A stretch of 45,148 nucleotides of DNA. It comes from Ignisphaera sp. (GTDB lineage: Archaea; Thermoproteota; Thermoprotei_A; Sulfolobales; Ignisphaeraceae). The stretch is taken from positions 1 through 45,148 of the forward strand of contig JAWAHS010000012.1 in NCBI GenBank assembly GCA_038889075.1, read 5' to 3'. The notes under the pieces are model-generated. The model saw only the letters and a list, made by a program, of their open reading frames with translations. It was not told the DNA's origin and ran no database searches. Of the stretch, positions 44 to 44,892 are shown piece by piece (the stretch's first letter is position 1; each line of letters opens with the position of its first letter). The position numbers and the translations under genes are program-made.

Positions 44-328
44 AACCTCACAACTCCGTACGGAGGTGAAAAATATGACATTGCTCCACTCGAGGAGCTG
101 GTGAGGATATACCAGATCTACAAGCTAGAAAACCAGGTTAACTACAAGCTGAGTAAACGAGACCTCAAGCGAATAGTCAAGATGCTAGCCGAAGAAGTAG
201 TTAACTTTCTAGTAAAGCAGGGATGCGGGGGGTGGGATTTGAACCCACGCAGGCCTATGCCATCGGGTCCTGAGCCCGACCCCTTTGACCTAGCTCGGGC
301 ACCCCCGCATTATCTATATAGTAGGTAG
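44..328 (+). pseudogene. Probable SSV-type integrase N-terminal fragment (intN) reading antisense into tRNA-Leu
   Basis: The open frame (…KYDIAPLEELVRIYQIYKLE…KQGCGGWDLNPRRP) runs antisense through the tRNA 3' half, which is the geometry of partitioned SSV-type integrases. IAPLEELVRIY resembles the recalled intN motif (VGPLxxVVxxY). In-frame stops at 35-43 truncate the N-terminus. Confidence 0.45.
224..308 (-). tRNA. tRNA-Leu (anticodon CAG), no intron, CCA not encoded
   Basis: Reverse complement GCGGGGGTGCCCGAGCTAGGTCAAAGGGGTCGGG-CTCAGGA-CCCGA…GGTTCAAATCC…CCCCCGCA folds as a cloverleaf with a long variable arm. Confidence 0.97.
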
Positions 329-6214: not shown

Positions 6215-6358
6215 ATTGAATACCGCTAGAGGCTATGTATATAGAGGGTTAATTAGCATTACTAGGAGTATTGCTGTAATAGGTTTTTAGGTTTCTTGTG
6301 CTATCTTTGGGTTGCGGAAAGATTGCATCTTATGGATAGAGCATCTCGGTGTAGTGCA

Positions 6359-7402
6359 GTGGTTTTGACTAAGCTGTTTAGAGTTGATGCTCTACAGCCC
6401 GATCCCGGCGTCTTGGACGAGGTCTGTAGGGATGTTTTAGATGGTAAGCTTATTGTCTTCCCCACGGAGACTGTATATGGTTTGGGAGCCTCTATATATA
6501 GACCCGAGGCTATCAGGAGGATCTTTATAGCTAAGAATAGACCTATGGACAACCCGCTCATAATCCACATATCCAGAGTAGAGCATCTGTACGAAACTGC
6601 TATAGATATTCCAGACTCTGTGTGGAGGCTTATAGAGCTTGCCTGGCCAGGGCCGCTAACACTTGTACTGAAGAGGGGGAGAGCAGTTCCACCAGAGGCT
6701 ACAGCAGGGCTACCAACAGTAGCTATTAGAATGCCTGCCCATCCAGTTGCCCAGAGACTCATAGACTGCACAGGCCCTCTAGCAGCACCAAGTGCAAACA
6801 TATCAGGAAGACCAAGCCCAACCACAGGCCACCACATCCTCACTGACATGTTTGGAAGGGCAAACGATATTATAGATGCAGGGGATACCATATTCGGTGT
6901 AGAGTCCACAATAGTGGATTTCTCTACAGAGCCTCCAAAGCTGCTGAGGCCGGGCGCCATGCCCATAGAGAGAATCACCGAAACTCTAGGTATAGAGGTT
7001 GTAGTGACGGATATCAGTAGGGGGTATAGAGAGGCTGAAAAAGCAGTAGCACCAGGAATGAAATACAGACACTATGCACCAGCAACACCACTAGTGGTTG
7101 TAGAGAGACGGAAATCCGAAGATGTCGTTGAAGTAGCCCTGGGCCTTAGGAGAGAGGGGAAGAGAGTAGCAGTTATCACCTGTAGGGAGAATGCTGAAGT
7201 CTACCAGGGGGCTGTAGATAGAGTTGTCACAGTTGGTTCAAGGGAGAACCTCTTTGAGGTAGCCAAAAACCTATTTGCAGCACTAAGAGAGCTCGACAGA
7301 CTTGGTGTAGATATAGCTATAGCAGAAAGCTTTCCAGAGAGGGGAATAGGGCTAGCAATAATGAATAGGCTTAGAAAAGCAGCAACGAAAATCCTCAGAT
7401 AA
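6359..7402 (+). CDS. sua5: L-threonylcarbamoyladenylate synthase Sua5 (YrdC + SUA5 domains)
   Basis: FPTETVYGLG, KNRPMDNPLIIH, AAPSANISGRPSPT, GVESTIVD, PGMKYRHYAP. Start moved to the in-frame GTG at 6359 after SD GGTG. Confidence 0.95.
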   Translation: MVLTKLFRVDALQPDPGVLDEVCRDVLDGKLIVFPTETVYGLGASIYRPEAIRRIFIAKNRPMDNPLIIHISRVEHLYETAIDIPDSVWRLIELAWPGPLTLVLKRGRAVPPEATAGLPTVAIRMPAHPVAQRLIDCTGPLAAPSANISGRPSPTTGHHILTDMFGRANDIIDAGDTIFGVESTIVDFSTEPPKLLRPGAMPIERITETLGIEVVVTDISRGYREAEKAVAPGMKYRHYAPATPLVVVERRKSEDVVEVALGLRREGKRVAVITCRENAEVYQGAVDRVVTVGSRENLFEVAKNLFAALRELDRLGVDIAIAESFPERGIGLAIMNRLRKAATKILR

Positions 7403-10413: not shown

Positions 10414-12252
10414 CTATGCACCTAGATAGGTGAGTGTTGCTATTAGTGCTGTTGCTGATAGTGTTGATAGTATTGCTGCGTGGAGGAATCCTGCTGCTAT
10501 TGTTGCCTGTGACGATTTTCCTGCTATCAGCCCCATTATGTAGGAGTTTACGATGTTTCCAATACCCATTACGAATAGAAGTGGTGTTGCCGTCGCCAGT
10601 GATATGTTTGCCATTGTGAGTAGCATGTAGAGTATTATTATAGGCATTGTTGCAAGCATTACTGCTCCAAAGTATGGGAGGATTACCTGTGTTCTCATTC
10701 TCCTCCTAGTCTCCTCCTCGAGCTCGCTTAGAATCTGGGTGAATCTAGCCAGCACATCTACTACCTCTGGCGACCCTCCACCAACAACAACGGAATCTGC
10801 TAGGAATCTAAGCGATGCTACTACAAACCACTCCTTTACACCCCTAAGGGCTCTTCTAAGAGCATCCTCTAGGCTAAAGCCTATGGAGAGTGCAGCTGCA
10901 GCTCTCGTAACGATTGGCGATAGCATTCTGTAGTCTCTTGCAGAGAGCATCACTATACACTTCTCTGGAGCTAGACCTGTCTTCCTAACCTCACTCAAAT
11001 CCCTTAGAAAATCTGCAGTTGCTCTAACAATACCTCTGTATCCCTTCACCATAGCTCTGTAGACGAGCCACGGAGGTAGGGAGAGGGTTAGAATAGCTAC
11101 AGCTAGCGATATCATTACGGACTTTACCACACCTAGATTTAAGACACCGAGAAGCAGATCCATACCACCGGTAGCTACAAGAGCAACTACAAATGCTGCT
11201 ATGGATATGGGTATAAATGTGATAAAGGTTGCATAAGCCCTTCCATAGTTTACAGGAGTTCTCGGCTGGTTTAGGTGGATTGCAAATGCGATAGCTATAC
11301 CCATTAGTGGAAGTACTAGGAAGTTGTACAGCGATGGCATTGTGATATCCATGGCTATAGCTATCTCTCCAGGGCTTCTCGCAGCCTGTGCAGCTGTAAT
11401 TGCACCAGAGACTGCAAAGAATACAAATAGTGTTACAGAGACTATTACACCGAATATGGTGTAGACCTCGAGATAGGATGCAAGTCTACCCATGATGGCC
11501 TTAATCTCGTTTGTCCTTGACTCAAAGAGCTCCCTAGTCCTAATCTCGAGATAGTGAACAACATCACCACCACTTCTAAGCGTTGTTGTATAGCCTAGCA
11601 TGAGATCTCTAAACCTTGTACTTGGATGTCGAATAGCGACATACTCTAGAGCAGTCAGTGGATCGTCTCCAAACATCCTAATCCTTGTCATAATCCTCTG
11701 GGCCTCTCTCCTAATACCTCTAAATATCTTAAGATGGGCAACTCTTTCAATAACCTTCTCAAAGCTGTAGCCACCTCTAACCATAGTCGATATGTATGCC
11801 ATGAAGAAGGGAAGCTCATTCTCAACCTCAGCTCTCCTCATAGAGGCTAGTATACCTGGGTATGAGAGTCTGTAGGAGAATACAACTATAGGCAGTACTA
11901 TGGCTATGAGGATGGCTATGACCATGTATGGAAGCGGTGGAGGTGCGAAGATGTATATGAGGACTGTAGTTAGTGTGGTGAATAGTGCTGTGAATAGGGT
12001 GAGGGCTATAGTTGATGCAGCGTATTTGACCGGGTGTATCGAGAGGCCTGCTCTATCTATAGCTTTATTAAGCTCAAATGTCTTTGCAAGTGCTCTTCCC
12101 CATGATTCAAAGAAGCTGAGGGAGAGAGCTGTAAAGACTTCCCCTACAGTTGGTGTTCTCCTTCTCATACCGGTTCTAGATTTCTGTAGGGCATCGGTAT
12201 CGGTACTGCCCTCCTTTTTCTTTCTTTTTATAAGCTGGAGCTTTGGTGCTAT
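10414..12252 (-). CDS. Type IV pilus assembly membrane platform protein (TadC/T2SS-F, two repeats)
   Basis: ENELPFFMAYI and DFLRDLSE T2SS-F domains, multiple TM helices. ORF-track ATG is at 12168; the frame is open to an SD-linked ATA at 12252. Confidence 0.9.
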   Translation of the reverse strand: MAPKLQLIKRKKKEGSTDTDALQKSRTGMRRRTPTVGEVFTALSLSFFESWGRALAKTFELNKAIDRAGLSIHPVKYAASTIALTLFTALFTTLTTVLIYIFAPPPLPYMVIAILIAIVLPIVVFSYRLSYPGILASMRRAEVENELPFFMAYISTMVRGGYSFEKVIERVAHLKIFRGIRREAQRIMTRIRMFGDDPLTALEYVAIRHPSTRFRDLMLGYTTTLRSGGDVVHYLEIRTRELFESRTNEIKAIMGRLASYLEVYTIFGVIVSVTLFVFFAVSGAITAAQAARSPGEIAIAMDITMPSLYNFLVLPLMGIAIAFAIHLNQPRTPVNYGRAYATFITFIPISIAAFVVALVATGGMDLLLGVLNLGVVKSVMISLAVAILTLSLPPWLVYRAMVKGYRGIVRATADFLRDLSEVRKTGLAPEKCIVMLSARDYRMLSPIVTRAAAALSIGFSLEDALRRALRGVKEWFVVASLRFLADSVVVGGGSPEVVDVLARFTQILSELEEETRRRMRTQVILPYFGAVMLATMPIIILYMLLTMANISLATATPLLFVMGIGNIVNSYIMGLIAGKSSQATIAAGFLHAAILSTLSATALIATLTYLGA

Positions 12253-13877
12253 TGCATTTCACCTACTCCAGCTATACCAATTGCCTTAAGTGTGCCGATG
12301 GGATCCATATAGTATCTGTAGATATATGTTGCAACAGATCTATAGTCATTTTTACCCGTCTCTACAAGCCATTCAAGTATAGCTCTTCTCCTCCCAAGCT
12401 CCTCTAGTAGGCTGTCGATTGAGAGTCCCGATAGTTCACCTATTCTCCTCAGCATAACACTGTTTTTAAGGTCTATGGAGAAGGTATCCTCTACAGGATT
12501 CCACCTGGCTATCTCTACATAGTCGTTGAAGCCCCTAACCTCCCATATATTTGTTATTCTTCTAGCAGGTCTTATCCTACCCCTTTCATCTCTTATCTGA
12601 ACCCTTCTAATAACCATAGCAATGTTTACTAGGGGTATGTACGACTCTGGTATATCCATAGGCTTTGATGTAAGCCTCTTTACAGCAGCATCTATACTCT
12701 CTGCATGTAGTGTTGTCATACCGCTGTGTCCTGTTGCAATGGCCTGGAAGAGTACGAATGCTTCCTCACCCCTCACCTCGCCAACTATAATTACATCGGG
12801 TCTGTATCTAAGGGAGAGTCTAACTAGGTGGAAGAGGGAGACCTCACCAACACCGCTACCTATATACGATGGTCTTGAGACGAGCTGTACCCAGTTATCG
12901 TGGGGAAGCCTAAGCTCGGGGGTGTCTTCAATGGTTACCACCTTGTATGTTGGTCTGAGAAGTGTTGCTAGGGCATTTAGTGTAGAGGTTTTACCCGAGC
13001 CGGTGACACCGAGTATGAGTGTTGTTAGTTTGTAGTCCATTGCAAGCCAGAAGTAGGATGCTATCTCGGGGGAGATGGTTTTGAAGCTAATCATGTCAGC
13101 TATAGTTATCGGAGATTCGCTGAACTTTCTAATGGTGAATGTCGAGCCTGATGTAGAGACCTCTCTCCTAAATGTTGCAGCAAGTCTGTGTCCACCAGGT
13201 AGGATAGCATCTAGAACGGGGTAGGCTACAGAGATGTGCTTTCCAGCCATATGGGCGAGCTTGAGTATGTATTCATCGAGCTCCTCCTCACTGGAGAACT
13301 CTATATTTGTTGGAATGGATTCGTACTTCCTATGCCATACATAGACAGGCTTCTTAGGACCGTTGCAGGATATATCCTCTATATACCTATCCCTGAAGAT
13401 GGGATCCAGAATACCGTAGCCAGCCAAATCCCTCTCAACATAGTACTCTATCTTACTCCACGATAAGCCGGGTGTCTTTGTAAATCTGATCTGAAACTCT
13501 CTGATAACCCTTCTAGCTGTCTTCAGAACCTCTCTAGTAGCATCAACATCTAGAGAAGTTACGGGCTTAAGTTCCCATATAATGAAATCCTTAATCTGGT
13601 TGTATATCCTCTGCTCATCCTCAGAGAGGGAGATCTCGTAAACCTCGTAGTATATTCTTCCAGTAGCTTCATCTTCAACGATATTTATGTATGCAAAGGG
13701 TTCTCGAACAGGGTAGGACTCTATCTTTCTATACCCTTTCAATGTACTGAACAGCTTGTGTAGAGCTCTATAGGATATCTGAAGAGAATGCTCATCCACT
13801 TCAGGCTTAGCCTCTACAGACCGAGTCCTAGACCCCCGTCTAAACATCTGTATAAACCTGTCAATAGGGTTTGCCAT
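12249..13877 (-). CDS. Type II/IV secretion system (pilus assembly) ATPase
   Basis: GVTGSGKT Walker A, TIEDTPEL Asp box, LRYRPDVIIVGEVRG, TGHSGMTTLHA His box. Start set at ATG 13877 (MANPIDRF). Confidence 0.95.
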   Translation of the reverse strand: MANPIDRFIQMFRRGSRTRSVEAKPEVDEHSLQISYRALHKLFSTLKGYRKIESYPVREPFAYINIVEDEATGRIYYEVYEISLSEDEQRIYNQIKDFIIWELKPVTSLDVDATREVLKTARRVIREFQIRFTKTPGLSWSKIEYYVERDLAGYGILDPIFRDRYIEDISCNGPKKPVYVWHRKYESIPTNIEFSSEEELDEYILKLAHMAGKHISVAYPVLDAILPGGHRLAATFRREVSTSGSTFTIRKFSESPITIADMISFKTISPEIASYFWLAMDYKLTTLILGVTGSGKTSTLNALATLLRPTYKVVTIEDTPELRLPHDNWVQLVSRPSYIGSGVGEVSLFHLVRLSLRYRPDVIIVGEVRGEEAFVLFQAIATGHSGMTTLHAESIDAAVKRLTSKPMDIPESYIPLVNIAMVIRRVQIRDERGRIRPARRITNIWEVRGFNDYVEIARWNPVEDTFSIDLKNSVMLRRIGELSGLSIDSLLEELGRRRAILEWLVETGKNDYRSVATYIYRYYMDPIGTLKAIGIAGVGEMQ

Positions 13878-14005
13878 ACAATCACTCAACAGATAATAGC
13901 TATAGGAAGATATATGGGTAACAGGGTATATAAACATCTCTGAAAAATTTATAAAACCATCTCTAGATATATAATAACAAGTATCTAACGCTATAGGTTT
14001 GTTAT

Positions 14006-17000
14006 ATGAACTGTAGATCAACCCTCTATACCCTAATAATTGTAGCCTCCATGCTATTACTATCCCTACCTAATATATATGCGGAATTTGTACAGCCAAG
14101 GAATATGACGATCAGCTACAATTTTGATATATCGCATCTGGGGGTGGCACCAAGGTATATAGCCGCTATAGATATTGATAGACTACTTGTAGCAGGCTCT
14201 GTAAATAATAGTAATGGAGTAGCCATACTAAATGTTAACGACCCCTATATAGGGGCCGTTGTTGAGCAGATATATCCATTGACGGGTAGCCCAACATGTG
14301 TAGCTGTAGATGGCTTCCCTATAAAGAGGATTGCCGTTGGCAGTGACAGAGGCGAGATTCTGCTATTCAATATTGAAGGTGGTAGAATAACAGGGTATCT
14401 ATATACTGTGCTGGGAGCGGACTTCTATATAAACAAGGTATACCTTGTAGAAGCACCAAACTCATCTAAGGTAATCGCCCTTGCTAGCGAAGGCGGTCCG
14501 AGAACAGTACCGTGTACAAGGTGCTACGTATATGTATTCGACGAACGTTCACCGGGGATTATGAGAATTGGTCCGAGAACAGGCAACGCTACTACAAGTA
14601 TTGAAAGGGTGTATGTACAGGATATAGCACCTCTAACGATATTCGATTCCTCTAAGATATATCGTAACGCATCGCTGGTTGCCCTAACCTATATACCAGC
14701 AGCTCTTATAACGCTAGAGTTCAGTATCCTGTATCTATACAACAATACGCTCTATCCAGCTGCAAATACATTGGTAGAGGTCTTGGCATACGATAAAGCT
14801 AGAGGTATAAGCTATCTATATGGTGTCAATGCCGATAGTAGAGGGAACATATCCATACCGGTGCTTATGGGGCTATATGCAAATCTTACAATAAGGGATA
14901 TAACTGGGAGAGTTATTTGGAGCACGGTATTCGATCCATCGAAACACGTAGCTATCGATAACACTGTTACACTTCCACCGGTTATAGTAACAGCTCCACC
15001 TGATACGAGGCGTGCTACGAGAGTCTATGGAACACCAGAGTTTCTCAAGGTCGCCATAGAGGTTCTAGATGTATCTAGTGCTCCAGCTAGATATACTACT
15101 GTTGCTTCTGCAAACTTTAGACTCGATATAGATACAGAGGGCTTCAACTTTATAGCAAATGCGAGAGAACCCATCTATACACTTGTGTTTGGAAATCCGT
15201 CTAGGGGGGAGCTGAGTCTCATTAGGGTAGCGGTAGCTGGTAAAACTCTTCGGAGGATACTTCAAACGGTAGACTATATAGGTCTTGCTACAGTACCTGT
15301 AGCAACGGTGACATATGTAGATGGTAGCTATATACATGTAGCTCTCTCAGATGGAAGGATAAGGGTCTTTAGAATCACACCATATAACTATACACTGTAC
15401 TACATCTATCCGATGGATGCACCGATAAGGAAGTTCCTACCTATACCAACGATAGAAGGCTACACATATACAGCGATAACAACTAGAGGCATACAAATCC
15501 TAACAGCATCACCAATACAGATACCGGTAATAAGAAACTTGACAACACTGTATGGAACCGTGCCAAACTATGTAGATAGCGATGCCCTAGCCGATCTATC
15601 AGCAATATTCCTAGCATCCTCAAATAGCATAACTGTAGTTAGAAATATGGTTAATGCTGCTAGGGAGAGGAGAGTACTTACACTAGATGAGATTAGAGCT
15701 CCAACCATAGTGGTGAAAATATCTCTACCTGGGAACGAAACCTATGAAAAAATCGTTGCCAACTTTACCTATCCTCAGAATACAGTTAGGCTTAAACCTG
15801 ATGAAAATGGCTTTATGAGAATCGCTAATTTAGTACCGGGAATAAGGTACAGCCTACATATATCGTATAAAGAGCCGTATGTGGTACCAGAGAATAGAAC
15901 TATAGTGCTTACAAGCTTTAGAGACGAGTTCATCGAGGTTCCAATGAAGTATAGAGAGTATACAGTCAAGGTAAAGGTTAGCGATCCGCTGAGTAGAGAG
16001 CCGATAGCACCATACAATATGTATATGGATGGTAGGCTAGTTGCTGAAGAGGTAAAGCTACCAGAAATCTCAATCAAGGCTATATACGGTTCCCACACAA
16101 TTGCTGTAGAGCCCGCCAAAGGCTATGAGGCGGTGTATGAACCGTCTATCCAGAGCCTATATGTTGATAGCGATAAGGAGCTGGAGATCCAGCTATTTAG
16201 GAAGAGCTATACGCTGACACTCTATATCGTAGACCGGGTATCGAATACCTCACCTATAGCCCCTGTACAGATAAGGCTTCCAGCAACCGGAATGGTATAC
16301 ACCCTACCACCAGGCGACCATCTAGAGATAGCAGTTCTCTTCGGTAATATGACAATCTATGTAGAGCCAGCAAGAGGTTGGGAGCGGGCCTATAGCCCAA
16401 CAGCAACTATTGTCGAGGTTTCAAGAGACACCGTATATATTGTCTATATAGATAGGGTAAAGTATGGAGTAAGGCTAAATGTACTTGACGGGTATACACA
16501 TAGTCTGGTAGCACCTGTAGAAATCCTCGTTAATGGTACCACGGTCTATAGAGGTTCTAGGAATACCGTAGATCTCGTATTGGATTATGGTGTATGGAAC
16601 CTGACAATCGCACCGCATAGAGAAGGAGCATACACCACCTACACCACGGTGTTGTATATTGATAGTGATAGGGAACTGATGTATGTACTGAATAGAACAC
16701 TATATGGAGTTGTACTTGAGGTTAGAGATGTATATGGATCACTGCTAACACCATTAAACATATCTATAAGCGGTGTAGTTAATACTAGCCAGGTAATAAA
16801 GCCCCCTACAACGAGAACAAGCTTCACCCTACCATATGGAGTATACAAAGTGTATGTAGAGCCTGTAGGGGATGCAAGGAAAATCTATATACCAGCGGCT
16901 ATAGACCTTACAGTTAAATCGGACTTACTTGAAACGATAGAGATTGAGAGGATTAGATATAAGCTGGATATAGCTATCCGTGATGTACCTATAGGAAGGC

Positions 17001-17581
17001 TTGTTGGTATATTTGATCTATATGCAAACAAGAGTAGAGTATATAGTGGAATTAAAGGTACAGCCTCTATAGAGATCCCATGTGGAGTCTATAGTATAGA
17101 ACTGGTGCCCCAATCACCATGGGATGCATTCTACGAGCCTTCAAGACCCATTGTTACACCTATATTCAATGATACATCCATCATCGTTTCCGTAAATAGA
17201 AAAAGCTTTAACCTGAGGATAACTGCGGTAGAGGGGGTATCACCGGTAAAGAATGCGGTTGTAGCTATAGAGAGTCTCGAGACTGGTATTACGATAACAC
17301 AGCTGATAACCGATGAGAATGGGATTATATCCACAAAGGTGCCGTATGGAACCTATAGAGTGGCTGTTACACACCCAGACTACTATCCATACGAGCTAGT
17401 GGTGAACATTGCTAGCGATGTCTATGAGATTGCCTATTTGAGACCAGCTATAGTAACCCTTGTAATGAGATACCTGCCCATAGTGCTTACACTGGTTGGT
17501 GTAGCAGTGGCTATATACATTATCCTAAAGATTAGGGCTATTATAGCGAGAAGGCTTGCTCCTGAGGAGGAGCTGTTCTAG
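14006..17581 (+). CDS. Large membrane-anchored surface protein (signal peptide, beta-propeller-like region, repeated PEGA/Ig-like domains, C-terminal TM)
   Basis: Sec signal; repeats of roughly 85 aa containing YGxYxxxVxP…YxP; many N-x-S/T sequons; C-terminal TM helix plus basic tail. Confidence 0.85.
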   Translation: MNCRSTLYTLIIVASMLLLSLPNIYAEFVQPRNMTISYNFDISHLGVAPRYIAAIDIDRLLVAGSVNNSNGVAILNVNDPYIGAVVEQIYPLTGSPTCVAVDGFPIKRIAVGSDRGEILLFNIEGGRITGYLYTVLGADFYINKVYLVEAPNSSKVIALASEGGPRTVPCTRCYVYVFDERSPGIMRIGPRTGNATTSIERVYVQDIAPLTIFDSSKIYRNASLVALTYIPAALITLEFSILYLYNNTLYPAANTLVEVLAYDKARGISYLYGVNADSRGNISIPVLMGLYANLTIRDITGRVIWSTVFDPSKHVAIDNTVTLPPVIVTAPPDTRRATRVYGTPEFLKVAIEVLDVSSAPARYTTVASANFRLDIDTEGFNFIANAREPIYTLVFGNPSRGELSLIRVAVAGKTLRRILQTVDYIGLATVPVATVTYVDGSYIHVALSDGRIRVFRITPYNYTLYYIYPMDAPIRKFLPIPTIEGYTYTAITTRGIQILTASPIQIPVIRNLTTLYGTVPNYVDSDALADLSAIFLASSNSITVVRNMVNAARERRVLTLDEIRAPTIVVKISLPGNETYEKIVANFTYPQNTVRLKPDENGFMRIANLVPGIRYSLHISYKEPYVVPENRTIVLTSFRDEFIEVPMKYREYTVKVKVSDPLSREPIAPYNMYMDGRLVAEEVKLPEISIKAIYGSHTIAVEPAKGYEAVYEPSIQSLYVDSDKELEIQLFRKSYTLTLYIVDRVSNTSPIAPVQIRLPATGMVYTLPPGDHLEIAVLFGNMTIYVEPARGWERAYSPTATIVEVSRDTVYIVYIDRVKYGVRLNVLDGYTHSLVAPVEILVNGTTVYRGSRNTVDLVLDYGVWNLTIAPHREGAYTTYTTVLYIDSDRELMYVLNRTLYGVVLEVRDVYGSLLTPLNISISGVVNTSQVIKPPTTRTSFTLPYGVYKVYVEPVGDARKIYIPAAIDLTVKSDLLETIEIERIRYKLDIAIRDVPIGRLVGIFDLYANKSRVYSGIKGTASIEIPCGVYSIELVPQSPWDAFYEPSRPIVTPIFNDTSIIVSVNRKSFNLRITAVEGVSPVKNAVVAIESLETGITITQLITDENGIISTKVPYGTYRVAVTHPDYYPYELVVNIASDVYEIAYLRPAIVTLVMRYLPIVLTLVGVAVAIYIILKIRAIIARRLAPEEELF

Positions 17582-24818: not shown

Positions 24819-24874
24819 ACTGAGTACACCAGGGGGTGCAACTGTATGTAAAAAATAAAAATTGGTTATCGTAA

Positions 24875-26159: not shown

Positions 26160-27971
26160 CTATTCTACATAGAAGTATTGGTTGAGGGCTCTCTGCTGTC
26201 TATCGAGATAGCTATCGGGTTTATTTATTCTAGGTCTTCCGTTATCCGGATCTCTCCTAACGGTTATACCCATAGATTTTAAAAAGCTATTCAGTACCTT
26301 AGCGACGGAATCTGGTGCACTTCCATAGCCCTCCCTACCAGGTACACCACTGAATACCATTAATCTATCCACAGAATAGTCGATGAGTAGGAAATTATGG
26401 TCTATAACAAAGATAGGGCTCTTTCTCAATCTGGCAATTCTCTTTATTGTTCTTGCTACCGAGAGCTGATCCTCTACATCGATATGCGATGACGGTTCGT
26501 CTAGGAGGTATACATCGGCATCTCTTATTAGAGTATAGGCTATGTAGAATTTCTGTAGCTCTCCACCGCTTAGAGACTCAAGCTCTTTACTCAATAGCCT
26601 ATCCACCCCTAGTCTCTTGACAACCTCTACATACAGCCAGCTATCCTCCTTTATAGCATCGCTATTTACACTCTTTAGGCACTCCAAAACTGTGTTGCAG
26701 TCCTTTACTACCCTTTCGAGGTACTGGGGCTTATAGCTCATCTTGAATGCTGTAGATGTGGTATAGCCTGTATCGGGCTCCAGCTCACCTACGAGAATCC
26801 TGATAAATGTCGTCTTGCCTATAGCATTAGGACCAACTATACCTATTACCTCACCTCTATAGGCTTGGCCCGGCTCAACATTTAATGTAAATCCGTCCAG
26901 CTTCTTCACAAGATTATCCCATACAAAGACAACCTCACTCGATTTTGCTATGTATCCATCTTCTCTAGCCTCGTGGAGCCTAAAGCTTATCTCCTCATCC
27001 CTGATCCTCATATTCTCTGATGGTAGAAACCCCTTTAGATAGTGGTCTATACCAGCCTTGGCCGTATAGACCTTTGAGAACATTCCATACGACCCAGGGA
27101 TGCCGAAAGCTATAGCGATAAGATCCGCTATATAGTCTAGAAACATTAGGTCGTGGTCTACGATAAATATGTAGCTATTTCTCGGCAGTAGCCTATCTAG
27201 AGCCATTAATACATGCAACCTCTCTCTAATATCCAGAAAACCTGTCGGCTCATCGAATATGTATACATTGGCATCTCTAAGAAGAGTAGCGGCAACTGCA
27301 AGTTTTTGAAGCTCACCACCGCTTAGCGTAGAGATATCCTTACCCAGCATGGGGTTTATATGGAGAGCGTCGATTACATCTCTATACATCCCTCTCTCAT
27401 CGATTCGCTTAAGTAACTCCTCTACTCTACCACTTCTAATGTACTTGGGTATCAGCTCGATATACTGAATCTTTTGGATAACCTTTAGCTGGCCCTGGTA
27501 TAGCTTACTGAAGTAGTCGTAGTATACAGTACCCTTGAACTTCTCTAGAACACGATCCCTAGAGGGTTCTATATCAAAGCGACCTATGTTTGGTATTAAG
27601 GATCCTGAGAGAATCTTCATAGCAGTTGATTTGCCAATACCGTTAGGACCTAGGATCCCGATTATCTTACCCTCAATAGGCATTGGGAGACCGTACAGCT
27701 TAAAGGCGTTCTGTCCATATCTGTGGACGAGATTTTCTTCTACCTCCTCTGGAAGGTTTACAACACTAATAGCCTTGTAGGGACACTTCTTAACACAAAT
27801 TCCACATGCTATACACTTCTCCTCATAGATTACTGGCTTCCCCTTCTTCTCCGTACTTAGTTCAATAGCTTTATAGGGCTTTGTTTTATTAATGGGGCAG
27901 AATCTTACGCAGGGAATGCCACATTTATCTGGATGGCACATCTCATAGTCTATTGTGGCTACCCTGGCCAT
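26160..27971 (-). CDS. ABCE1/Rli1 ribosome recycling ATPase
   Basis: N-terminal two-[4Fe-4S] domain (CHPDKC…CP; CIACGICVKKCP) and two ABC domains with LSGGELQ. Confidence 0.97.
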   Translation of the reverse strand: MARVATIDYEMCHPDKCGIPCVRFCPINKTKPYKAIELSTEKKGKPVIYEEKCIACGICVKKCPYKAISVVNLPEEVEENLVHRYGQNAFKLYGLPMPIEGKIIGILGPNGIGKSTAMKILSGSLIPNIGRFDIEPSRDRVLEKFKGTVYYDYFSKLYQGQLKVIQKIQYIELIPKYIRSGRVEELLKRIDERGMYRDVIDALHINPMLGKDISTLSGGELQKLAVAATLLRDANVYIFDEPTGFLDIRERLHVLMALDRLLPRNSYIFIVDHDLMFLDYIADLIAIAFGIPGSYGMFSKVYTAKAGIDHYLKGFLPSENMRIRDEEISFRLHEAREDGYIAKSSEVVFVWDNLVKKLDGFTLNVEPGQAYRGEVIGIVGPNAIGKTTFIRILVGELEPDTGYTTSTAFKMSYKPQYLERVVKDCNTVLECLKSVNSDAIKEDSWLYVEVVKRLGVDRLLSKELESLSGGELQKFYIAYTLIRDADVYLLDEPSSHIDVEDQLSVARTIKRIARLRKSPIFVIDHNFLLIDYSVDRLMVFSGVPGREGYGSAPDSVAKVLNSFLKSMGITVRRDPDNGRPRINKPDSYLDRQQRALNQYFYVE

Positions 27972-28041
27972 GGATGTGCATCACCTAGAAGTTAGCTGGC
28001 TTCTTAAAAAACATTGATTTGATTAAGGCATTTCGGATTTT

Positions 28042-28122
28042 CTACCACTCTTCTTCTTCCCATTCCTCTTCTTCTTCCCACCACTCTTCTTCCTCTTCTT
28101 CCCACTCCTCCTCTAGGAGCAT
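28042..28122 (-). CDS. 26-aa Glu/Trp micro-protein MLLEEEWEEEEEEWWEEEEEWEEEEW
   Basis: TATA-like TTTAATAA (~28168-28161), SD GAGGTG, ATG 28122, TAG 28044-28042; mixed GAA/GAG codons, frame intact. Confidence 0.75.
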   Translation of the reverse strand: MLLEEEWEEEEEEWWEEEEEWEEEEW

Positions 28123-28206
28123 CGTTAGCACCTCACATCTTAAAGCTTCACAGCACGGGGTTATTAAACATATCTTCTGTTACAACATATAGAATCAATA
28201 GATTTG

Positions 28207-28767
28207 CTACTCAATTAAAATACTATTACAGCCTGAAACCCCTATGAGAATCTCATTCAAATACCTCTCGAGACCTCCAGTATCGATATCCTTAGTCTTC
28301 TTAAAGACGCTCAGCACATCGATTATATGTAGAGTAGGCTTTTTAAGTACCTCATTCCAGGCTATAGTTACGCATCCACAGTCCCTAATGGTACCCCCTA
28401 TAGCATCAACCACTACATCAACCCCTAGATTTCCATCAAGCTCTTCAGACCCACTGTATACTACAACTATATGCCTATCGTCGTAGAGCTGTGGGGATAT
28501 ACTGTTTAGTATTGTTGATATCTGTCTCTCACTAAATAGTCTCACCATATACTCCAGCTCCATCTTCTTAGCAATATTTGTACCCCTATTAAATGAGGTA
28601 CGGGATGTGAGGAATGCTATTACATGACTCTGCCAGGGCATGTTGTAGAGCGATGTAGCTAGGCACTCTATCTTAGTAATACCAGCTTTAGCTAGCCTAC
28701 TACGTAGTTCTGAGCAGATCTCATCATATATATTGGAGCTACAGCGTATTGGTATTAGGAGTATCAG
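28207..28767 (-). CDS. cgi121: KEOPS complex subunit Cgi121
   Basis: SHVIAF…FNRGTNIAKKMELEYMVRL…RQIS motif; S17e/ThiS/ABCE1 neighbourhood. The frame is open 42 codons upstream of ATG 28641 to an SD-linked CTG. Confidence 0.75.
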   Translation of the reverse strand: MILLIPIRCSSNIYDEICSELRSRLAKAGITKIECLATSLYNMPWQSHVIAFLTSRTSFNRGTNIAKKMELEYMVRLFSERQISTILNSISPQLYDDRHIVVVYSGSEELDGNLGVDVVVDAIGGTIRDCGCVTIAWNEVLKKPTLHIIDVLSVFKKTKDIDTGGLERYLNEILIGVSGCNSILIE

Positions 28768-29057
28768 CTACGACCACCATGTGTAATAGGTACTAGCAGA
28801 ATCTCATCGTCATCATCAACGTACAGTTCATCAAGGTTATCAAAAACATTGATATCGATGCCGTTAACTAGCACCATTAAATCGTAGCTAGGAGCACCAT
28901 CATCATTTATTACGCTACTCAGAGCTTTAAAGTTCCTCCTCAGCTCTTTTAATAGAAGTTTTAGAGAGGCTCTACCGCCTATTGGAATATCTATGGAGGC
29001 TGCCCCAACATCGGTCTTGAATCTCCCTAAAAACTTTATCTTAACTATACATTTCAC
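28764..29057 (-). CDS. Ubiquitin-like MoaD/ThiS (Urm1/SAMP) protein
   Basis: VKIKFLG…VLVNGIDI…DEILLVPITHGG beta-grasp pattern; ends GG-RS. Confidence 0.9.
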   Translation of the reverse strand: MKCIVKIKFLGRFKTDVGAASIDIPIGGRASLKLLLKELRRNFKALSSVINDDGAPSYDLMVLVNGIDINVFDNLDELYVDDDDEILLVPITHGGRS

Positions 29058-42682: not shown

Positions 42683-44335
42683 GTGAGGATAGAGATATTG
42701 GATAAGGTAATGGTTATCGATGCTAATGCTAGAGGTAGAGGAAGGAGATTTTCAACACTAGATGTTATAGGTGTTGGTCCACGTCTTATAGTATCTCTAC
42801 TGAAAAGCTATGGTCTATACGCTGATCTGATGCCCTATGAGGTATTTGTTAGAGACCCTAGTATTGCTAAAGAATTCGATGTTCTAGCGATATCCTATAT
42901 GGTGAGCGATGTCGTAGCTGTGAAAAAGGCTATAGAGATTTGGCGTAAGCTTAATAGGGATGGTATTGTTGTTTTGGGTGGTCCAGGTACACTCGATACC
43001 GATACATTAACGGAGCTAGATTTTGATCTAGCCTTTAAGGGAGAGTCCGAGGTCACCCTCGATAATATCTTCAGCAGGTATCGGAGTCTATATGATGTTT
43101 TACATGGTGTTAGGGAGCAGGAAATACAGCCAGGGTTGGTTGTAAAGCTATCTGGTAGAAGGTTAATCGATGGAGGGATAGGATGCTGGGTACCGAGGGA
43201 GTTGATCAACAGAGTGATGCCGGATGTGGATAGTGTTACAAAGTATCCATTCTACTGGGCATCTAGGGTGTATGTAGAGGTTGTTAGAGGTTGCAGTAAC
43301 TTTTATAGACCTGTTTTAGCGGCTGGTGCCTCCTGTCTAGGTTGCAACATATGTAGGTCTGGTAATCTTAGTTCAAGAATTAGATGTCCCATTGGAATAC
43401 CGCCTGGATGTGGATATTGTAGTGTTCCAGCAATACACGGACCAGCACGTTCTCGCGAGATGGATATTATAGTTAGGGAGGTAAAAGCTCTCATAAAAGC
43501 AGGTGTTACAAGGGTTGTTCTTAGTGCTCCTGATTTTCTCGACTATGGTAGAGATTTCCTTGTAGACGATCTACTGACTGATCCGTGCAATCCAAAGCCA
43601 AATGTGGATGCCATTGATAGACTTTTACATAGCCTTACCTCTATTACGGAGGTTGCTGAGGGGGGTGCTACAATCTCTATTGAAAATGTTAAGCCGTGTC
43701 TCGTAACGGAGGAGGTTGCCGAGATTCTTGGTAGATATCTTAAGGATTCGGTGGTATATATTGGTGTTGAGAGCTGCAGTGATAGGCTTTTAAAATCTAT
43801 TGGAAGACCATCGATGTATAGCGAAAGTCTTAAGGCAATAGAACTTCTATCCAAATATGGTCTAAGACCATATGTATATTTAATGCATGGACTTCCATCC
43901 GAGTGTGATGAGGATATAAAGAGCACCCTAGCTTGCATTGACATATTTAGATCCCTTGGTGTGGAAAAAATAGTGTTATATAGGTTTACACCCCTTCCAT
44001 ATACAGCCTTCAGTAGTTCTCCAAGACCAGAGCCAGCTGTATCGAATCCTATTAAGGCCATACTCTATAGAAGTGTTACGAATTTTAATAGGGATCGGAA
44101 GTACGGATTGCTAAATAGGGTTATAGATGTGGTTATAGCTGCTAGGTATAGGGATCCACGCTACCTAGTATCCTATCCTCTGAGGCACGGTCCGGTAGTG
44201 CTCATTAGAGCATCTAAAAACTTCATAGGTACTATAGCAACCATTCGTGTAACAGGTGTTAAAAGCGATAGACTTGTTTATGGTGAGCTCATCTATGTTA
44301 AAAAGAGGTTAAAACCTAGACAGCATATACAATAA
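42683..44335 (+). CDS. Radical SAM protein with N-terminal B12-binding-like and C-terminal TRAM-like domains
   Basis: VVLGGPG, KGESE, VEVVRGC…GCGYC, ARSR, IGVESCSD, YLMHGLP; C-terminal beta-rich domain. Confidence 0.88.
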   Translation: MRIEILDKVMVIDANARGRGRRFSTLDVIGVGPRLIVSLLKSYGLYADLMPYEVFVRDPSIAKEFDVLAISYMVSDVVAVKKAIEIWRKLNRDGIVVLGGPGTLDTDTLTELDFDLAFKGESEVTLDNIFSRYRSLYDVLHGVREQEIQPGLVVKLSGRRLIDGGIGCWVPRELINRVMPDVDSVTKYPFYWASRVYVEVVRGCSNFYRPVLAAGASCLGCNICRSGNLSSRIRCPIGIPPGCGYCSVPAIHGPARSREMDIIVREVKALIKAGVTRVVLSAPDFLDYGRDFLVDDLLTDPCNPKPNVDAIDRLLHSLTSITEVAEGGATISIENVKPCLVTEEVAEILGRYLKDSVVYIGVESCSDRLLKSIGRPSMYSESLKAIELLSKYGLRPYVYLMHGLPSECDEDIKSTLACIDIFRSLGVEKIVLYRFTPLPYTAFSSSPRPEPAVSNPIKAILYRSVTNFNRDRKYGLLNRVIDVVIAARYRDPRYLVSYPLRHGPVVLIRASKNFIGTIATIRVTGVKSDRLVYGELIYVKKRLKPRQHIQ

Positions 44336-44804: not shown

Positions 44805-44892
44805 GCGGGGGTGCCCGAGCCAGGTCAAAGGGGTCGGGCTGAGGACCCGATGGCATAGGCCTGCGTGGGTTCAAATCCCACCCCCCGCACCA
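44805..44892 (+). tRNA. tRNA-Leu (anticodon GAG), CCA encoded
   Basis: GCGGGGGTGCCCGAGCCAGGTCAAAGGGGTCGGG-CTGAGGA-CCCGA…GGTTCAAATCC…CCCCCGCA-CCA; TATA-like TTATAAAA at ~44751. Confidence 0.97.

What the first reader, a model, noticed from the sequence alone, without database searches (positions are those of the whole stretch)
28042..28170. 26-aa Glu/Trp-only micro-protein encoded directly upstream of ABCE1
Seen: TATA, SD GAGGTG, then MLLEEEWEEEEEEWWEEEEEWEEEEW-stop (18 Glu, 5 Trp). Mixed GAA/GAG usage and preserved frame argue for a coding sequence rather than a microsatellite. It is co-oriented with and 70 bp from ABCE1. Known: acidic Trp motifs mediate protein docking (eIF3j/Hcr1 N-terminus), and a C-terminal Trp in Lto1 recruits the Fe-S machinery to eukaryotic Rli1. 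Inference: an unannotated ABCE1/ribosome partner, nucleic-acid mimic or leader peptide.
Basis: partly seen in the sequence, partly recalled or inferred. Interest (0 to 1): 0.7.

Follow-up and report, generated by a model that had tools for sequence, protein, structure and literature searches.

The report
Conserved Glu/Trp micro-gene before ABCE1
A 26-codon gene that encodes almost nothing but glutamate and tryptophan sits just upstream of the ribosome-recycling gene ABCE1 in four Ignisphaera archaea, and its peptide has stayed identical while everything around it changed, so it is probably a real, unannotated gene whose role is still unknown.

Summary
On the minus strand, ATG 28122 to TAG 28042 encodes MLLEEEWEEEEEEWWEEEEEWEEEEW. 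A TATA-like box and a GAGGTG motif precede it, and ABCE1 starts 70 nt downstream.

All three carry the same 81-nt ORF with the identical peptide.
- 12 of 81 columns vary. All are silent: 10 at codon position 3, one CTA/TTA, one ATG/GTG start.
- The flanking spacers are only 31% and 56% invariant and contain indels.
- No other frame on either strand keeps a conserved ORF.
- The GAA/GAG pattern itself is conserved (p=0.0002), although Glu codons in ABCE1 are fully randomised.
- The rarer GAA codon is enriched.

So this is a real coding micro-gene (about 0.85). It is absent from a 15-billion-protein collection and from the literature I searched.

Function is inferred only. I slightly favour a cis-acting leader ORF that ties ABCE1 expression to how ribosomes handle an acidic nascent chain (0.4). 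The main rival is a free polyanionic/Trp peptide that binds ABCE1 or the ribosome (0.35).

Distribution beyond this clade could not be checked.

The parts
28161..28168 (-). TATA-like box TTTAATAA (CTTAATAA in L003), starting 46-48 nt before the micro-ORF start codon
   Evidence: Sequence. It sits in a conserved block, TTAATAACCC, in 4 of 4 genomes. Distances are 46, 46, 46 and 48 nt. Its role as a promoter is inferred from general knowledge of archaeal promoters, not measured.
28129..28134 (-). Shine-Dalgarno-like GAGGTG, 6 nt before the start codon
   Evidence: GTGAGGTG is invariant in 4 of 4 genomes. The spacing is 6 nt; in L001 the conserved copy is the second of two GAGGTG. SD-like motifs precede 18 of 31 window genes.
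28042..28122 (-). Micro-ORF: 26 codons plus TAG, encoding MLLEEEWEEEEEEWWEEEEEWEEEEW
   Evidence: The peptide is identical in L001 (GTG start), L002 and L003. 12 of 81 columns vary, all silent, with 0 gapped columns. The GAA/GAG pattern is conserved (p=0.0002).
28006..28011 (-). T6 tract (U6 in the RNA), 30 nt after the stop codon and 34 nt before the ABCE1 ATG. It could be a terminator/attenuator, the TATA-like box of ABCE1, or both.
   Evidence: TGTTTTTTA is invariant within a spacer that is otherwise only 31% invariant. The stop-to-T6 distance is 30, 31, 30, 31 nt; the T6-to-ATG distance is 34, 31, 32, 54 nt. Only 14 runs of six or more T occur in the window on both strands, 5 of them intergenic.
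27982..27991 (-). Conserved block CTTCTAGGTG containing the SD-like motif of ABCE1
   Evidence: CTTCTRGGYG is present in 4 of 4 genomes and ends 6-10 nt before the ABCE1 ATG.
26160..27971 (-). ABCE1/RLI (603 aa), the downstream gene
   Evidence: Pfam ABC_tran, Fer4, Fer4_RLI. NCBIfam NF009945 RLI, 810 bits against a cutoff of 469.
28207..28641 (-). Upstream neighbour: a divergent KEOPS subunit Cgi121-like gene. It is context only and has not been shown to belong to the system.
   Evidence: NCBIfam NF011465 matches 16 of 16 family members (best E 4.4e-13). The window's own copy scores 27 bits, below the cutoff of 40. It is 62, 60 and 49% identical to the copies in L001-L003.

Best explanation
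The 81-nt ORF is a real, translated gene. It has its own TATA-like box, SD-like motif, start and stop, and selection preserves its exact peptide.

Most likely it acts in cis, as a leader ORF of the ABCE1 transcription unit. The steps below are inferred, not shown.
1. Transcription starts about 15 nt before the ATG and can run on into ABCE1.
2. A ribosome translating the ORF builds a 26-residue chain that never leaves the exit tunnel.
3. That chain consists of Glu runs, which in bacteria and eukaryotes destabilise the early elongating ribosome. Trp, the bulkiest residue and of the kind shown to counteract that destabilisation, punctuates the runs every 5-7 positions.
4. How fast and how completely ribosomes pass this ORF and terminate at UGG-UAG would therefore depend on the state of the translation machinery, including termination and recycling capacity.
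5. The stop lies a fixed 30-31 nt ahead of a conserved U6 tract and about 70 nt ahead of the SD-led ABCE1 start. Ribosome behaviour on the ORF would thus set read-through of the U-tract and/or re-initiation at ABCE1, giving feedback on the recycling factor.
For: Shown: the ORF is a gene.
- The same 81-nt ORF and the identical peptide occur in 4 of 4 Ignisphaera sources.
- All 12 variable columns are silent: 10 at codon position 3, one CTA/TTA, one ATG/GTG.
- A random substitution is silent with probability 0.11-0.24. Eleven silent out of 11 therefore has P of 3e-11 to 1.4e-7. Under a purine-tract-only model, P is 1.6e-5.
- There are no indels in a triplet-repeat-like tract, while the downstream spacer has 32 gapped columns out of 96.
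- The antisense Ser/His frame is an ORF in only 2 of 4 genomes. The +2 frame shows R/G and V/M changes.
- Neighbouring proteins have diverged: ABCE1 82-87% identical, S17e 75-86%, Cgi121-like 49-62%.

Consistent with cis action.
- TATA-to-start, SD-to-start and stop-to-T6 distances are conserved. ABCE1 keeps an SD-like block, which is only useful on a transcript with a leader.
- Synonymous sites are constrained: GAA/GAG pattern identity is 0.741 against 0.551 when shuffled (p=0.0002). In ABCE1, conserved Glu codons are randomised (0.589 against 0.574, p=0.36).
- The rarer codon GAA is enriched: 11 of 18, against 30% in 31 window genes (p=0.008).

Precedents, from passages I read.
- N-terminal D/E runs abort translation in bacteria, yeast and a human system (PMC9718836).
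- Bulky residues near the peptidyl-transferase centre, and about 30 aa of tunnel occupancy, counteract this (bioRxiv 10.1101/2021.02.02.429294).
- The 8-codon mgtQ ORF uses this effect to control the next gene (PMC8092293 abstract).
- ABC-F translation ATPases relieve it (PMC11162784).
Against: - No step of the mechanism has been observed.
- My searches found no archaeal leader-peptide control of ABCE1.
- PMC9718836 states that the Pyrococcus furiosus proteome shows no N-terminal D/E avoidance. Hyperthermophile ribosomes may therefore not suffer this destabilisation.
- The transcript has no structure beyond chance (z = -0.04). The consensus fold is weak: -11 kcal/mol at 37 C, with no compensatory change in the one long-range helix. 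That leaves no RNA switch to transmit a signal.
- The T-rich box could simply be ABCE1's own TATA box. A similar T6 sits 31 nt before the TIM gene. The two genes would then be separate transcription units.
- L003 has a 23-nt insertion between the T6 tract and ABCE1, so that spacing is not critical.
- Strict conservation of every residue fits a free peptide with a specific partner equally well.
- Only four closely related, fully syntenic genomes were seen.
Confidence: 0.4

Rival explanations
1. A free (trans-acting) micro-protein. The 26-mer (18 Glu, no basic residue) is released and binds a basic or hydrophobic site, folding into a helix on contact. W7, W14 and W21 would then line one face (7-residue spacing). 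Candidate sites are the peptide-binding cavity on ABCE1 NBD1 (used by the acidic-plus-hydrophobic tail of stalk protein aP1 and approached by the eIF3j N-terminus), the ribosome, or an RNA/DNA-binding protein (nucleic-acid mimic or chaperone of basic proteins).
For: - The gene has its own conserved TATA-like box, SD-like motif, start, stop and a T6 tract that could be its terminator. That is the layout of an independent small gene.
- Every residue, the exact Trp spacing and the length are fixed in 4 of 4 genomes, with no Glu/Asp exchange.
- ABCE1 NBD1 binds a short helical peptide through L103, L106 and F107 of aP1 (PMC6125642 passages). The eIF3j N-terminus occupies a similar position (PMC7780240 passages).
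Against: - No partner has been identified.
- The hydrophobic spacing of aP1 (i, i+3, i+4) is not present.
- Enrichment of the rarer GAA codon and constraint on synonymous sites are not expected for a simply abundant peptide.
- A chain of 69% Glu is unlikely to fold alone. Structure prediction was not possible at this length.
- No fused form exists: 0 of 120 ABCE1 homologues and 0 of 16 Cgi121-like proteins carry an E/W-rich stretch.
Confidence: 0.35
2. It is not translated. The tract is a nucleic-acid element, for example a polypurine/polypyrimidine DNA tract, a protein-binding GAR-repeat RNA, or a purine-rich 5' leader of ABCE1. The open frame would then be a by-product.
For: - Synonymous positions are themselves more conserved than chance.
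- The ORF is 89-95% identical at nucleotide level between genomes.
- The tract is almost purely purine on the sense strand.
Against: - All 9 varying Glu-codon sites fall at codon position 3, although positions 1 and 2 are purines too (P=1.6e-5).
- The two Leu codons change only silently, including CTA/TTA at position 1.
- The start codon stays ATG or GTG, the stop stays TAG, and the SD-like motif stays 6 nt upstream in 4 of 4 genomes.
- There is no length change in a slippage-prone tract.
- No Rfam family matches: none at gathering score, and only a 15.6-bit hit against a threshold of 55. There is no RNA structure signal.
Confidence: 0.1
3. The peptide is a precursor that is modified, for example a ribosomally made Glu/Trp-derived cofactor or cross-linked peptide, or a carrier with a reactive C-terminus.
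For: - The peptide is short and of extreme composition, with invariant Trp positions.
- From recall, not from a call: small precursor peptides such as PqqA supply Glu and an aromatic residue for a cofactor.
Against: - No maturase is adjacent. The neighbours are Cgi121-like, Urm1/MoaD-like, S17e and ABCE1.
- The only radical-SAM ORF in the window lies 14 kb away, at 42683-44335.
Confidence: 0.03
4. The real gene is the antisense ORF that reads the same tract as poly-Ser/His (57 aa, 28019-28192, plus strand).
For: In that frame the Glu third-position changes are also silent (TCT/TCC), and the frame is open across the tract in all four genomes.
Against: - With a canonical start, it is an ORF in only 2 of 4 genomes: 57 aa in the window and 159 aa in L002. 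L001 and L003 have none.
- Its flanks are not conserved and carry frame-shifting indels.
- The silent Leu-codon changes of the sense frame become R/S/K changes here.
- It has no relatives among predicted proteins of 31-100 aa.
Confidence: 0.02

Closest known systems
Acidic 'ribosome-destabilising' leader ORFs of bacteria (mgtL, mgtQ of Salmonella)
   Same: A very short ORF directly upstream of the controlled gene on the same strand. Acidic residues early in the nascent chain are the active feature, and the ORF acts in cis through the ribosome (PMC8092293 abstract; bioRxiv 10.1101/2021.02.02.429294 passages).
   Different: Here there are 18 Glu and 5 Trp in 26 codons, against 2-4 acidic residues (with Pro in mgtL). 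No alternative RNA stem-loops are detectable. The host is archaeal, the downstream gene is a translation factor, and nothing has been tested.
Nascent-peptide arrest leaders that stall at their stop codon and control a downstream terminator (TnaC of the E. coli tna operon; recalled, from no call)
   Same: A leader peptide of about 25 residues whose length and Trp position are fixed relative to the stop codon, followed at a short fixed distance by a transcription-termination zone and then the structural gene.
   Different: There is no sequence similarity. Archaeal termination at U-tracts does not use Rho. Stalling has not been shown here.
Leader-peptide control of ABC-F translation ATPases
   Same: A soluble twin-ABC ATPase that acts on the ribosome, preceded by a short ORF. 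ABC-F proteins relieve acidic-chain problems (PMC11162784 passages). That paper also refers to regulated expression of resistance ABC-Fs.
   Different: ABCE1 is a different ABC subfamily with a different job (subunit splitting). The details of ABC-F leader attenuation are recalled, not read here.
Acidic-plus-hydrophobic peptides that dock on ABCE1: the archaeal stalk aP1 C-terminal tail and the eIF3j/Hcr1 N-terminus
   Same: Short, otherwise unstructured segments that become helical on ABCE1 NBD1 (PMC6125642; PMC7780240). That the aP1 tail is preceded by an acidic run is recalled, not read here.
   Different: Those are tails of larger proteins. The aP1 contact residues are L-x-x-L-F, not Trp. 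Archaea lack eIF3j (recalled).
C-terminal [LIM]-[DES]-[WF] tripeptide and Lto1 C-terminal Trp of the eukaryotic cytosolic Fe-S assembly pathway that matures Rli1/ABCE1
   Same: A C-terminal Trp preceded by an acidic residue, with a link to ABCE1 (search listing and abstract starts of PMC4523923 and PMC10245660).
   Different: Position -3 is Glu, not Leu/Ile/Met. The recognition complex is eukaryotic, and its presence in this organism was not examined.

Membership tests
Protein-coding gene (as opposed to a simple repeat) | Substitutions between relatives respect one reading frame | tested here: met
   All 12 variable columns out of 81 are silent in the E/W frame. P is 1.4e-7 or lower under random substitution.
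Protein-coding gene (as opposed to a simple repeat) | Start, stop and ribosome-binding signals are conserved; there are no frame-breaking indels | tested here: met
   ATG (3 genomes) or GTG (1), TAG in 4 of 4, GAGGTG 6 nt upstream in 4 of 4, ORF length 81 nt in 4 of 4.
Protein-coding gene (as opposed to a simple repeat) | Evidence of translation (ribosome occupancy or peptide detection) | not testable with these tools
   No expression data were available.
Microsatellite / non-coding simple repeat | Copy-number (length) variation between related genomes | tested here: not met
   0 gapped columns out of 81 in four genomes. The adjacent spacer has 32 gapped columns out of 96.
Acidic ribosome-destabilising leader ORF (mgtL/mgtQ type) | Short ORF immediately upstream of, and co-oriented with, the regulated gene | tested here: met
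   68-91 nt upstream of ABCE1 in 4 of 4 genomes. Co-transcription was not testable.
Acidic ribosome-destabilising leader ORF (mgtL/mgtQ type) | Cluster of D/E within the first ~10-30 residues of the nascent chain | tested here: met
   Glu occupies positions 4-6, 8-13, 16-20 and 22-25.
Acidic ribosome-destabilising leader ORF (mgtL/mgtQ type) | Alternative mRNA structures that couple leader translation to the downstream ribosome-binding site or terminator | tested here: not met
   Fold z-score is -0.04. The consensus fold is -11 kcal/mol, and its one long-range 7-bp helix has no compensatory change.
Acidic ribosome-destabilising leader ORF (mgtL/mgtQ type) | Premature peptidyl-tRNA release during translation of the ORF | not testable with these tools
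   Needs in vitro translation.
CIA targeting tripeptide [LIM]-[DES]-[WF]-COOH | Trp/Phe at -1 and Asp/Glu/Ser at -2 | tested here: met
   The C-terminus is ...E-E-W. The motif is as given in the PMC10245660 abstract start.
CIA targeting tripeptide [LIM]-[DES]-[WF]-COOH | Leu/Ile/Met at -3 | tested here: not met
   Position -3 is Glu in 4 of 4 genomes.
Stalk-tail-like ABCE1 NBD1 ligand (aP1 C-terminus) | Hydrophobic triad with i, i+3, i+4 spacing (L103, L106, F107) | tested here: not met
   Hydrophobic residues are at positions 2, 3, 7, 14, 15, 21 and 26, and no such triad exists. The motif is from PMC6125642.
Stalk-tail-like ABCE1 NBD1 ligand (aP1 C-terminus) | Physical binding to ABCE1 | not testable with these tools
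   Needs a binding assay.
Any Rfam RNA family | Match at the family's gathering score | tested here: not met
   No match in the region at gathering score. The best sub-threshold hit scores 15.6 bits against 55.

The most novel reading that the evidence does not exclude
The E/W micro-ORF is a 'tunnel gauge'. Its chain is built only from the residue class that destabilises the early ribosome (Glu) and the bulkiest stabilising residue (Trp). Its translation and termination would report the cell's ribosome-splitting and termination capacity and feed back on ABCE1 synthesis. This would be the first leader-peptide control circuit described in archaea and the first autoregulation of the universal recycling factor.
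Probability: 0.25. Interest if true: 0.85.

Novelty: new variant of a known kind. Interest (0 to 1): 0.65.

Why it matters
ABCE1 is essential in all archaea and eukaryotes, yet how its level is set is largely unknown.

A 26-codon ORF made of two amino acids is a very unusual object. It is invisible to gene callers, and it is conserved to the letter while ABCE1 itself changed at 13-18% of residues.
- If it acts in cis, it would bring nascent-chain sensing, known from bacteria and eukaryotes, into archaea. It would also link that sensing to the recycling factor.
- If it acts in trans, it would be a minimal natural polyanionic/Trp ligand of the translation apparatus.

Either way it can be tested directly with a synthetic peptide, a reporter fusion and transcript-end mapping. 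It also shows that low-complexity filters and length cut-offs hide real genes.

Tried and rejected
- **Homologue search with the peptide:** not possible, because the tool needs at least 40 aa.
- **Exact look-up:** the 26-aa sequence is not in the 15-billion-protein collection. In that call the L001 reference was one base off, so that row is void. The 29-aa GTG-start forms may have been read with V rather than M, so those rows are weak.
- **Antisense search:** I searched with the 57-aa antisense ORF, hoping gene callers had predicted it in other genomes. 63 candidates were found, none at E<=1.
- **Co-folding with ABCE1:** the peptide was folded against ABCE1 (61-row alignment). The result was no verdict, score 0.00 against a mark of 0.32. 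The tool notes that it was not calibrated for partners under 30 aa. This counts neither for nor against binding.
- **Structure prediction or atlas search of the peptide:** not possible below 30 aa.
- **AlphaFold2 of the Cgi121-like neighbour:** too poor to use (mean pLDDT 50), so I ran no fold search. phmmer against PDB found nothing.
- **RNA explanations:** no Rfam match and no structure beyond shuffles. The 7-bp pairing between codons 2-5 and CUUCUAGG next to the ABCE1 SD is kept but never compensated. It would not be stable at about 90 C (growth temperature recalled).
- **Stop-codon read-through into ABCE1:** rejected. The distance from stop to ATG is 73 nt in the window and 71 nt in L001, so the frames differ, and a second in-frame stop follows.
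- **A split-off tail of a neighbouring gene:** rejected. 0 of 120 ABCE1 homologues and 0 of 16 Cgi121-like proteins have an E/W-rich stretch.
- **Other copies:** a regular-expression scan found exactly one such ORF in the window and in each of L001-L003, and none in L004.
- **Literature:** no paper holds 'Ignisphaera' with 'small open reading frame'. Nothing relevant turned up on ABCE1 with archaea and upstream ORFs (35 papers, 10 listed). The same goes for archaeal leader peptides with ABCE1 (2 bacterial reviews), archaea/uORF/Sulfolobus/leader peptide (3 unrelated papers), and microprotein/archaea/glutamate-rich/tryptophan (41 papers at 3 of 4 terms, 8 listed, none on such a peptide). PMC10802582 was read for a Trp-before-stop effect and holds none.
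- **Not checked:** The single genome-collection scan reached only ABCE1 relatives of 82% identity or more. The next relatives (72% and 69% identical, P0006 and P0007) could not be inspected.
Full report
**1. The observation**

The feature is on the minus strand. Reading 28170 to 28042 gives TTTAATAA (28168-28161), GAGGTG (28134-28129) and ATG (28122). Then follow CTC CTA and 23 codons drawn only from GAA, GAG and TGG, ending at TAG (28044-28042).

The product is MLLEEEWEEEEEEWWEEEEEWEEEEW: 18 Glu, 5 Trp, 2 Leu, 1 Met. The ORF listing reports the 29-aa version from an in-frame GTG at 28131, inside the GAGGTG motif.

ABCE1 (603 aa, 26160-27971, same strand) is secure. It matches Pfam ABC_tran, Fer4 and Fer4_RLI and the NCBIfam RLI model at 810 bits against a cutoff of 469. 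The gap between the two genes is 70 nt.

A 21-nt GAR/TGG pattern occurs only here in the window. It occurred in none of 100 shuffles. The window's genes hold 6.7% Glu and 0.65% Trp codons.

**2. Relatives**

53 stretches matched a pattern, 5 encoded a relative, and these fell into 4 loci. Three loci are Ignisphaera MAGs whose ABCE1 is 85, 87 and 82% identical (L001-L003). The fourth is an unrelated Flavobacteriaceae ABC protein at 25%.

All three Ignisphaera loci carry an 81-nt ORF at the same place, and it encodes the identical 26 residues. L001 starts with GTG instead of ATG.

In the four-way alignment the three segments differ sharply:

| Segment | Columns | Invariant | Gapped | Pairwise identity |
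|---|---|---|---|---|
| Upstream spacer | 86 | 56% | 2 | 0.69-0.81 |
| Micro-ORF | 81 | 85% (12 variable) | 0 | 0.89-0.95 |
| Downstream spacer | 96 | 31% | 32 | 0.41-0.65 |

All 12 variable ORF columns are silent: ten third positions (nine of Glu codons, one of Leu), one CTA/TTA first position, and the ATG/GTG start.

A random substitution in codons 2-26 is silent with probability 0.11-0.24, depending on transition bias. Eleven silent out of eleven therefore has P between 3e-11 and 1.4e-7. If only A/G exchanges in a purine tract were allowed, nine of nine at position 3 has P=1.6e-5.

The three codons between the upstream GTG and the ATG do change the amino acid (LT, LA, PT, LV). This favours the ATG (GTG in L001) as the start.

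**3. Other frames**

Third-position Glu changes are also silent in the antisense Ser/His frame, so I checked that frame. With a canonical start it is an ORF in only 2 of 4 genomes (57 aa in the window, 159 aa in L002). Its flanks are unconserved, and the silent Leu changes of the sense frame become R/S/K there. It has no relatives among predicted proteins.

The sense +2 frame (GRRGRR...) shows R/G and V/M changes and variable ends. Only the E/W frame behaves like a gene.

**4. How strong the constraint is**

Amino-acid identity of the neighbours to the window's copies:

| Protein | L001 | L002 | L003 |
|---|---|---|---|
| ABCE1 | 85% | 87% | 82% |
| S17e | 86% | 82% | 75% |
| Cgi121-like | 62% | 60% | 49% |
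| FBPase | not retrieved | 95% | 96% |
| E/W peptide | 100% | 100% | 100% |

Across all six genome pairs, ABCE1 identity is 80-87%. FBPase was not retrieved from L001 by my script.

At Glu positions shared by all four ABCE1 proteins (32 columns), codon choice is fully randomised. Mean pairwise identity is 0.589 against 0.574 for shuffles (p=0.36). In the micro-ORF the GAA/GAG pattern is kept: 0.741 against 0.551 (p=0.0002).

The micro-ORF also prefers GAA (11 of 18; 10-14 of 18 in the relatives). The 31 window genes use GAA for only 30% of Glu codons (235 GAA, 541 GAG; p=0.008).

So selection acts on the peptide and, beyond that, on the codons or the RNA/DNA sequence. Possible reasons, all inferred:
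- control of translation speed;
- avoidance of long GAGGAG anti-SD-binding runs;
- interruption of pure GAA repeats, which slip.

**5. Architecture**

Distances in the window, L001, L002 and L003, in that order:

| Interval | Distance (nt) |
|---|---|
| TATA-like box to ORF start | 46, 46, 46, 48 |
| GAGGTG to start codon | 6 in all (in L001, for the conserved second copy) |
| Stop to T6 tract | 30, 31, 30, 31 |
| T6 tract to ABCE1 ATG | 34, 31, 32, 54 |

The sequence between the stop and the T6 tract has diverged, yet the distance holds. L003 has a 23-nt insertion between the T6 tract and ABCE1. A block CTTCTRGGYG, holding an SD-like motif, ends 6-10 nt before the ABCE1 ATG in all four genomes.

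Runs of six or more T are rare: 14 in the window on both strands, 5 of them intergenic. One of these lies 19 nt after the FBPase stop and 31 nt before the TIM start. This layout therefore recurs, and the T6 tract may be a terminator, a TATA-like box, or both.

SD-like motifs precede 18 of 31 genes, and TAG is the commonest stop (21 of 31).

From general knowledge of archaeal promoters (TATA centred near -26), the micro-ORF mRNA would start near 28138. A start driven by the T-rich box would fall at about 27981. That would exclude ABCE1's conserved SD-like motif from the transcript. I take this as a mild argument that ABCE1 is at least partly expressed from read-through transcripts.

**6. Surroundings**

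The gene order is thermosome (opposite strand), S17e, a 97-aa MoaD/Urm1/SAMP-like protein, a Cgi121-like protein, the micro-ORF, ABCE1, FBPase and TIM. L002 and L003 keep this order.

The 144-aa upstream gene has no Pfam match. All 16 of 16 members of its family match the NCBIfam Cgi121 model (best E 4.4e-13). The window's own copy scores 27 bits, below the cutoff of 40.

Nothing adjacent looks like a peptide-modifying enzyme.

**7. RNA-level tests**

No Rfam family matches. The 191-nt putative transcript folds no better than shuffles (z = -0.04).

RNAalifold proposes a 7-bp pairing of codons 2-5 with CUUCUAGG beside the ABCE1 SD. All four genomes keep it, but only through one-sided changes. 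The total consensus energy is -11 kcal/mol at 37 C. I do not rely on it.

**8. What it does**

Two readings fit about equally.

*Cis-acting leader ORF (my preference, 0.4).* N-terminal D/E runs make bacterial and eukaryotic ribosomes abort (PMC9718836, passages). Bulky residues next to the catalytic centre, and a tunnel filled by about 30 residues, counteract this (bioRxiv 10.1101/2021.02.02.429294, passages). An 8-codon acidic ORF uses the effect to switch on the next gene in Salmonella (PMC8092293, abstract). ABC-F ATPases relieve it (PMC11162784, passages). In human cells eIF2D recycles the 40S subunits left behind (PMC12673854, abstract).

The E/W chain alternates the destabilising residue with the bulkiest one, and at 26 residues it never leaves the tunnel. 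It ends a fixed 30-31 nt before a U6 tract and about 70 nt before an SD-led ABCE1 start. Rare-codon enrichment and synonymous constraint fit a sequence whose decoding kinetics matter. A ribosome that lingers at, or falls off, this ORF could change read-through of the U-tract or re-initiation at ABCE1. That would be a feedback loop, similar in spirit to RF2 autoregulation and TnaC control (both recalled, not from a call).

Against this reading:
- No archaeal precedent turned up.
- The P. furiosus proteome shows no N-terminal D/E avoidance.
- There is no RNA switch.
- ABCE1 may have its own promoter.
- L003 carries an insertion in the spacer.

*Free polyanionic/Trp peptide (0.35).* The ORF has the signals of an independent gene, and every residue and the 7-residue Trp spacing (W7, W14, W21) are fixed. 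ABCE1 NBD1 has a cavity that binds the helical C-terminal tail of stalk protein aP1 (PMC6125642, passages). The eIF3j N-terminus sits in a similar place (PMC7780240, passages).

However, the aP1 hydrophobic spacing is absent. The C-terminus E-E-W fails position -3 of the eukaryotic [LIM]-[DES]-[WF] Fe-S targeting tripeptide. No partner is known.

*Less likely readings:* an untranslated nucleic-acid element (0.1), a modified-peptide precursor (0.03) and the antisense ORF (0.02).

**9. Novelty**

The exact 26-aa sequence is not among about 15 billion predicted proteins. Five literature searches found nothing on such a peptide or on leader control of archaeal ABCE1. No fused form exists among 120 ABCE1 and 16 Cgi121-like homologues.

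I file it as a new variant of a known kind (small or leader ORF). It is real with about 0.85 confidence, and its function is unresolved.

**10. Limits**

- Only four closely related, syntenic genomes were seen.
- Relatives with ABCE1 at 69-72% identity exist, but their DNA could not be fetched.
- The peptide is too short for the homology, structure and atlas tools.
- No expression data exist here.

Noticed in passing
window 28642-28767 (-): The Cgi121-like frame stays open for about 42 codons upstream of its ATG (28641). There it matches the N-terminal extension seen in relatives (P0122, P0123 and the more distant 164-190-aa members). However, it holds no ATG, GTG or TTG: the window has CTA where L002 has the TTG start. 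Either the start is non-canonical or the product is N-terminally shortened.
   Followed up: partly
window 28764-29057 (-); L002 about 3205-3222: The 97-aa MoaD/Urm1/SAMP-like protein ends in HGG followed by two more residues (RS in the window, LA in L002). The di-glycine would need to be exposed by processing if the protein acts as a modifier or sulfur carrier.
   Followed up: partly
window 24850-24855 (-): A second intergenic T6 run has the same layout as the one after the micro-ORF. It lies 19 nt after the FBPase stop and 31 nt before the TIM start, and TIM also has a GGTG motif upstream. This may be a recurring terminator/promoter design in this genome.
   Followed up: no
L003, alignment A1 columns about 234-256: A 23-nt insertion lies between the conserved T6 tract and the ABCE1 SD block, in L003 only. 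It lengthens the stop-to-ATG distance to 91 nt.
   Followed up: partly
window 224-308 (-) and 44805-44889 (+): Two tRNA matches span 85 nt for a 71-position model. This suggests an intron or a long variable arm. Anticodons were not determined.
   Followed up: no
window 14006-17581 (+): A 1191-aa ORF with no Pfam match lies beside T2SSE- and T2SSF-like (type IV pilus/archaellum-type) genes at 10414-14021.
   Followed up: no
window 6296-7402 (+): Sua5 (threonylcarbamoyl-AMP synthase) lies in the same window as the Cgi121-like gene. Both belong to the tRNA t6A pathway. aTrm56, archaeosine TGT and a PUA-domain partner are also present.
   Followed up: no
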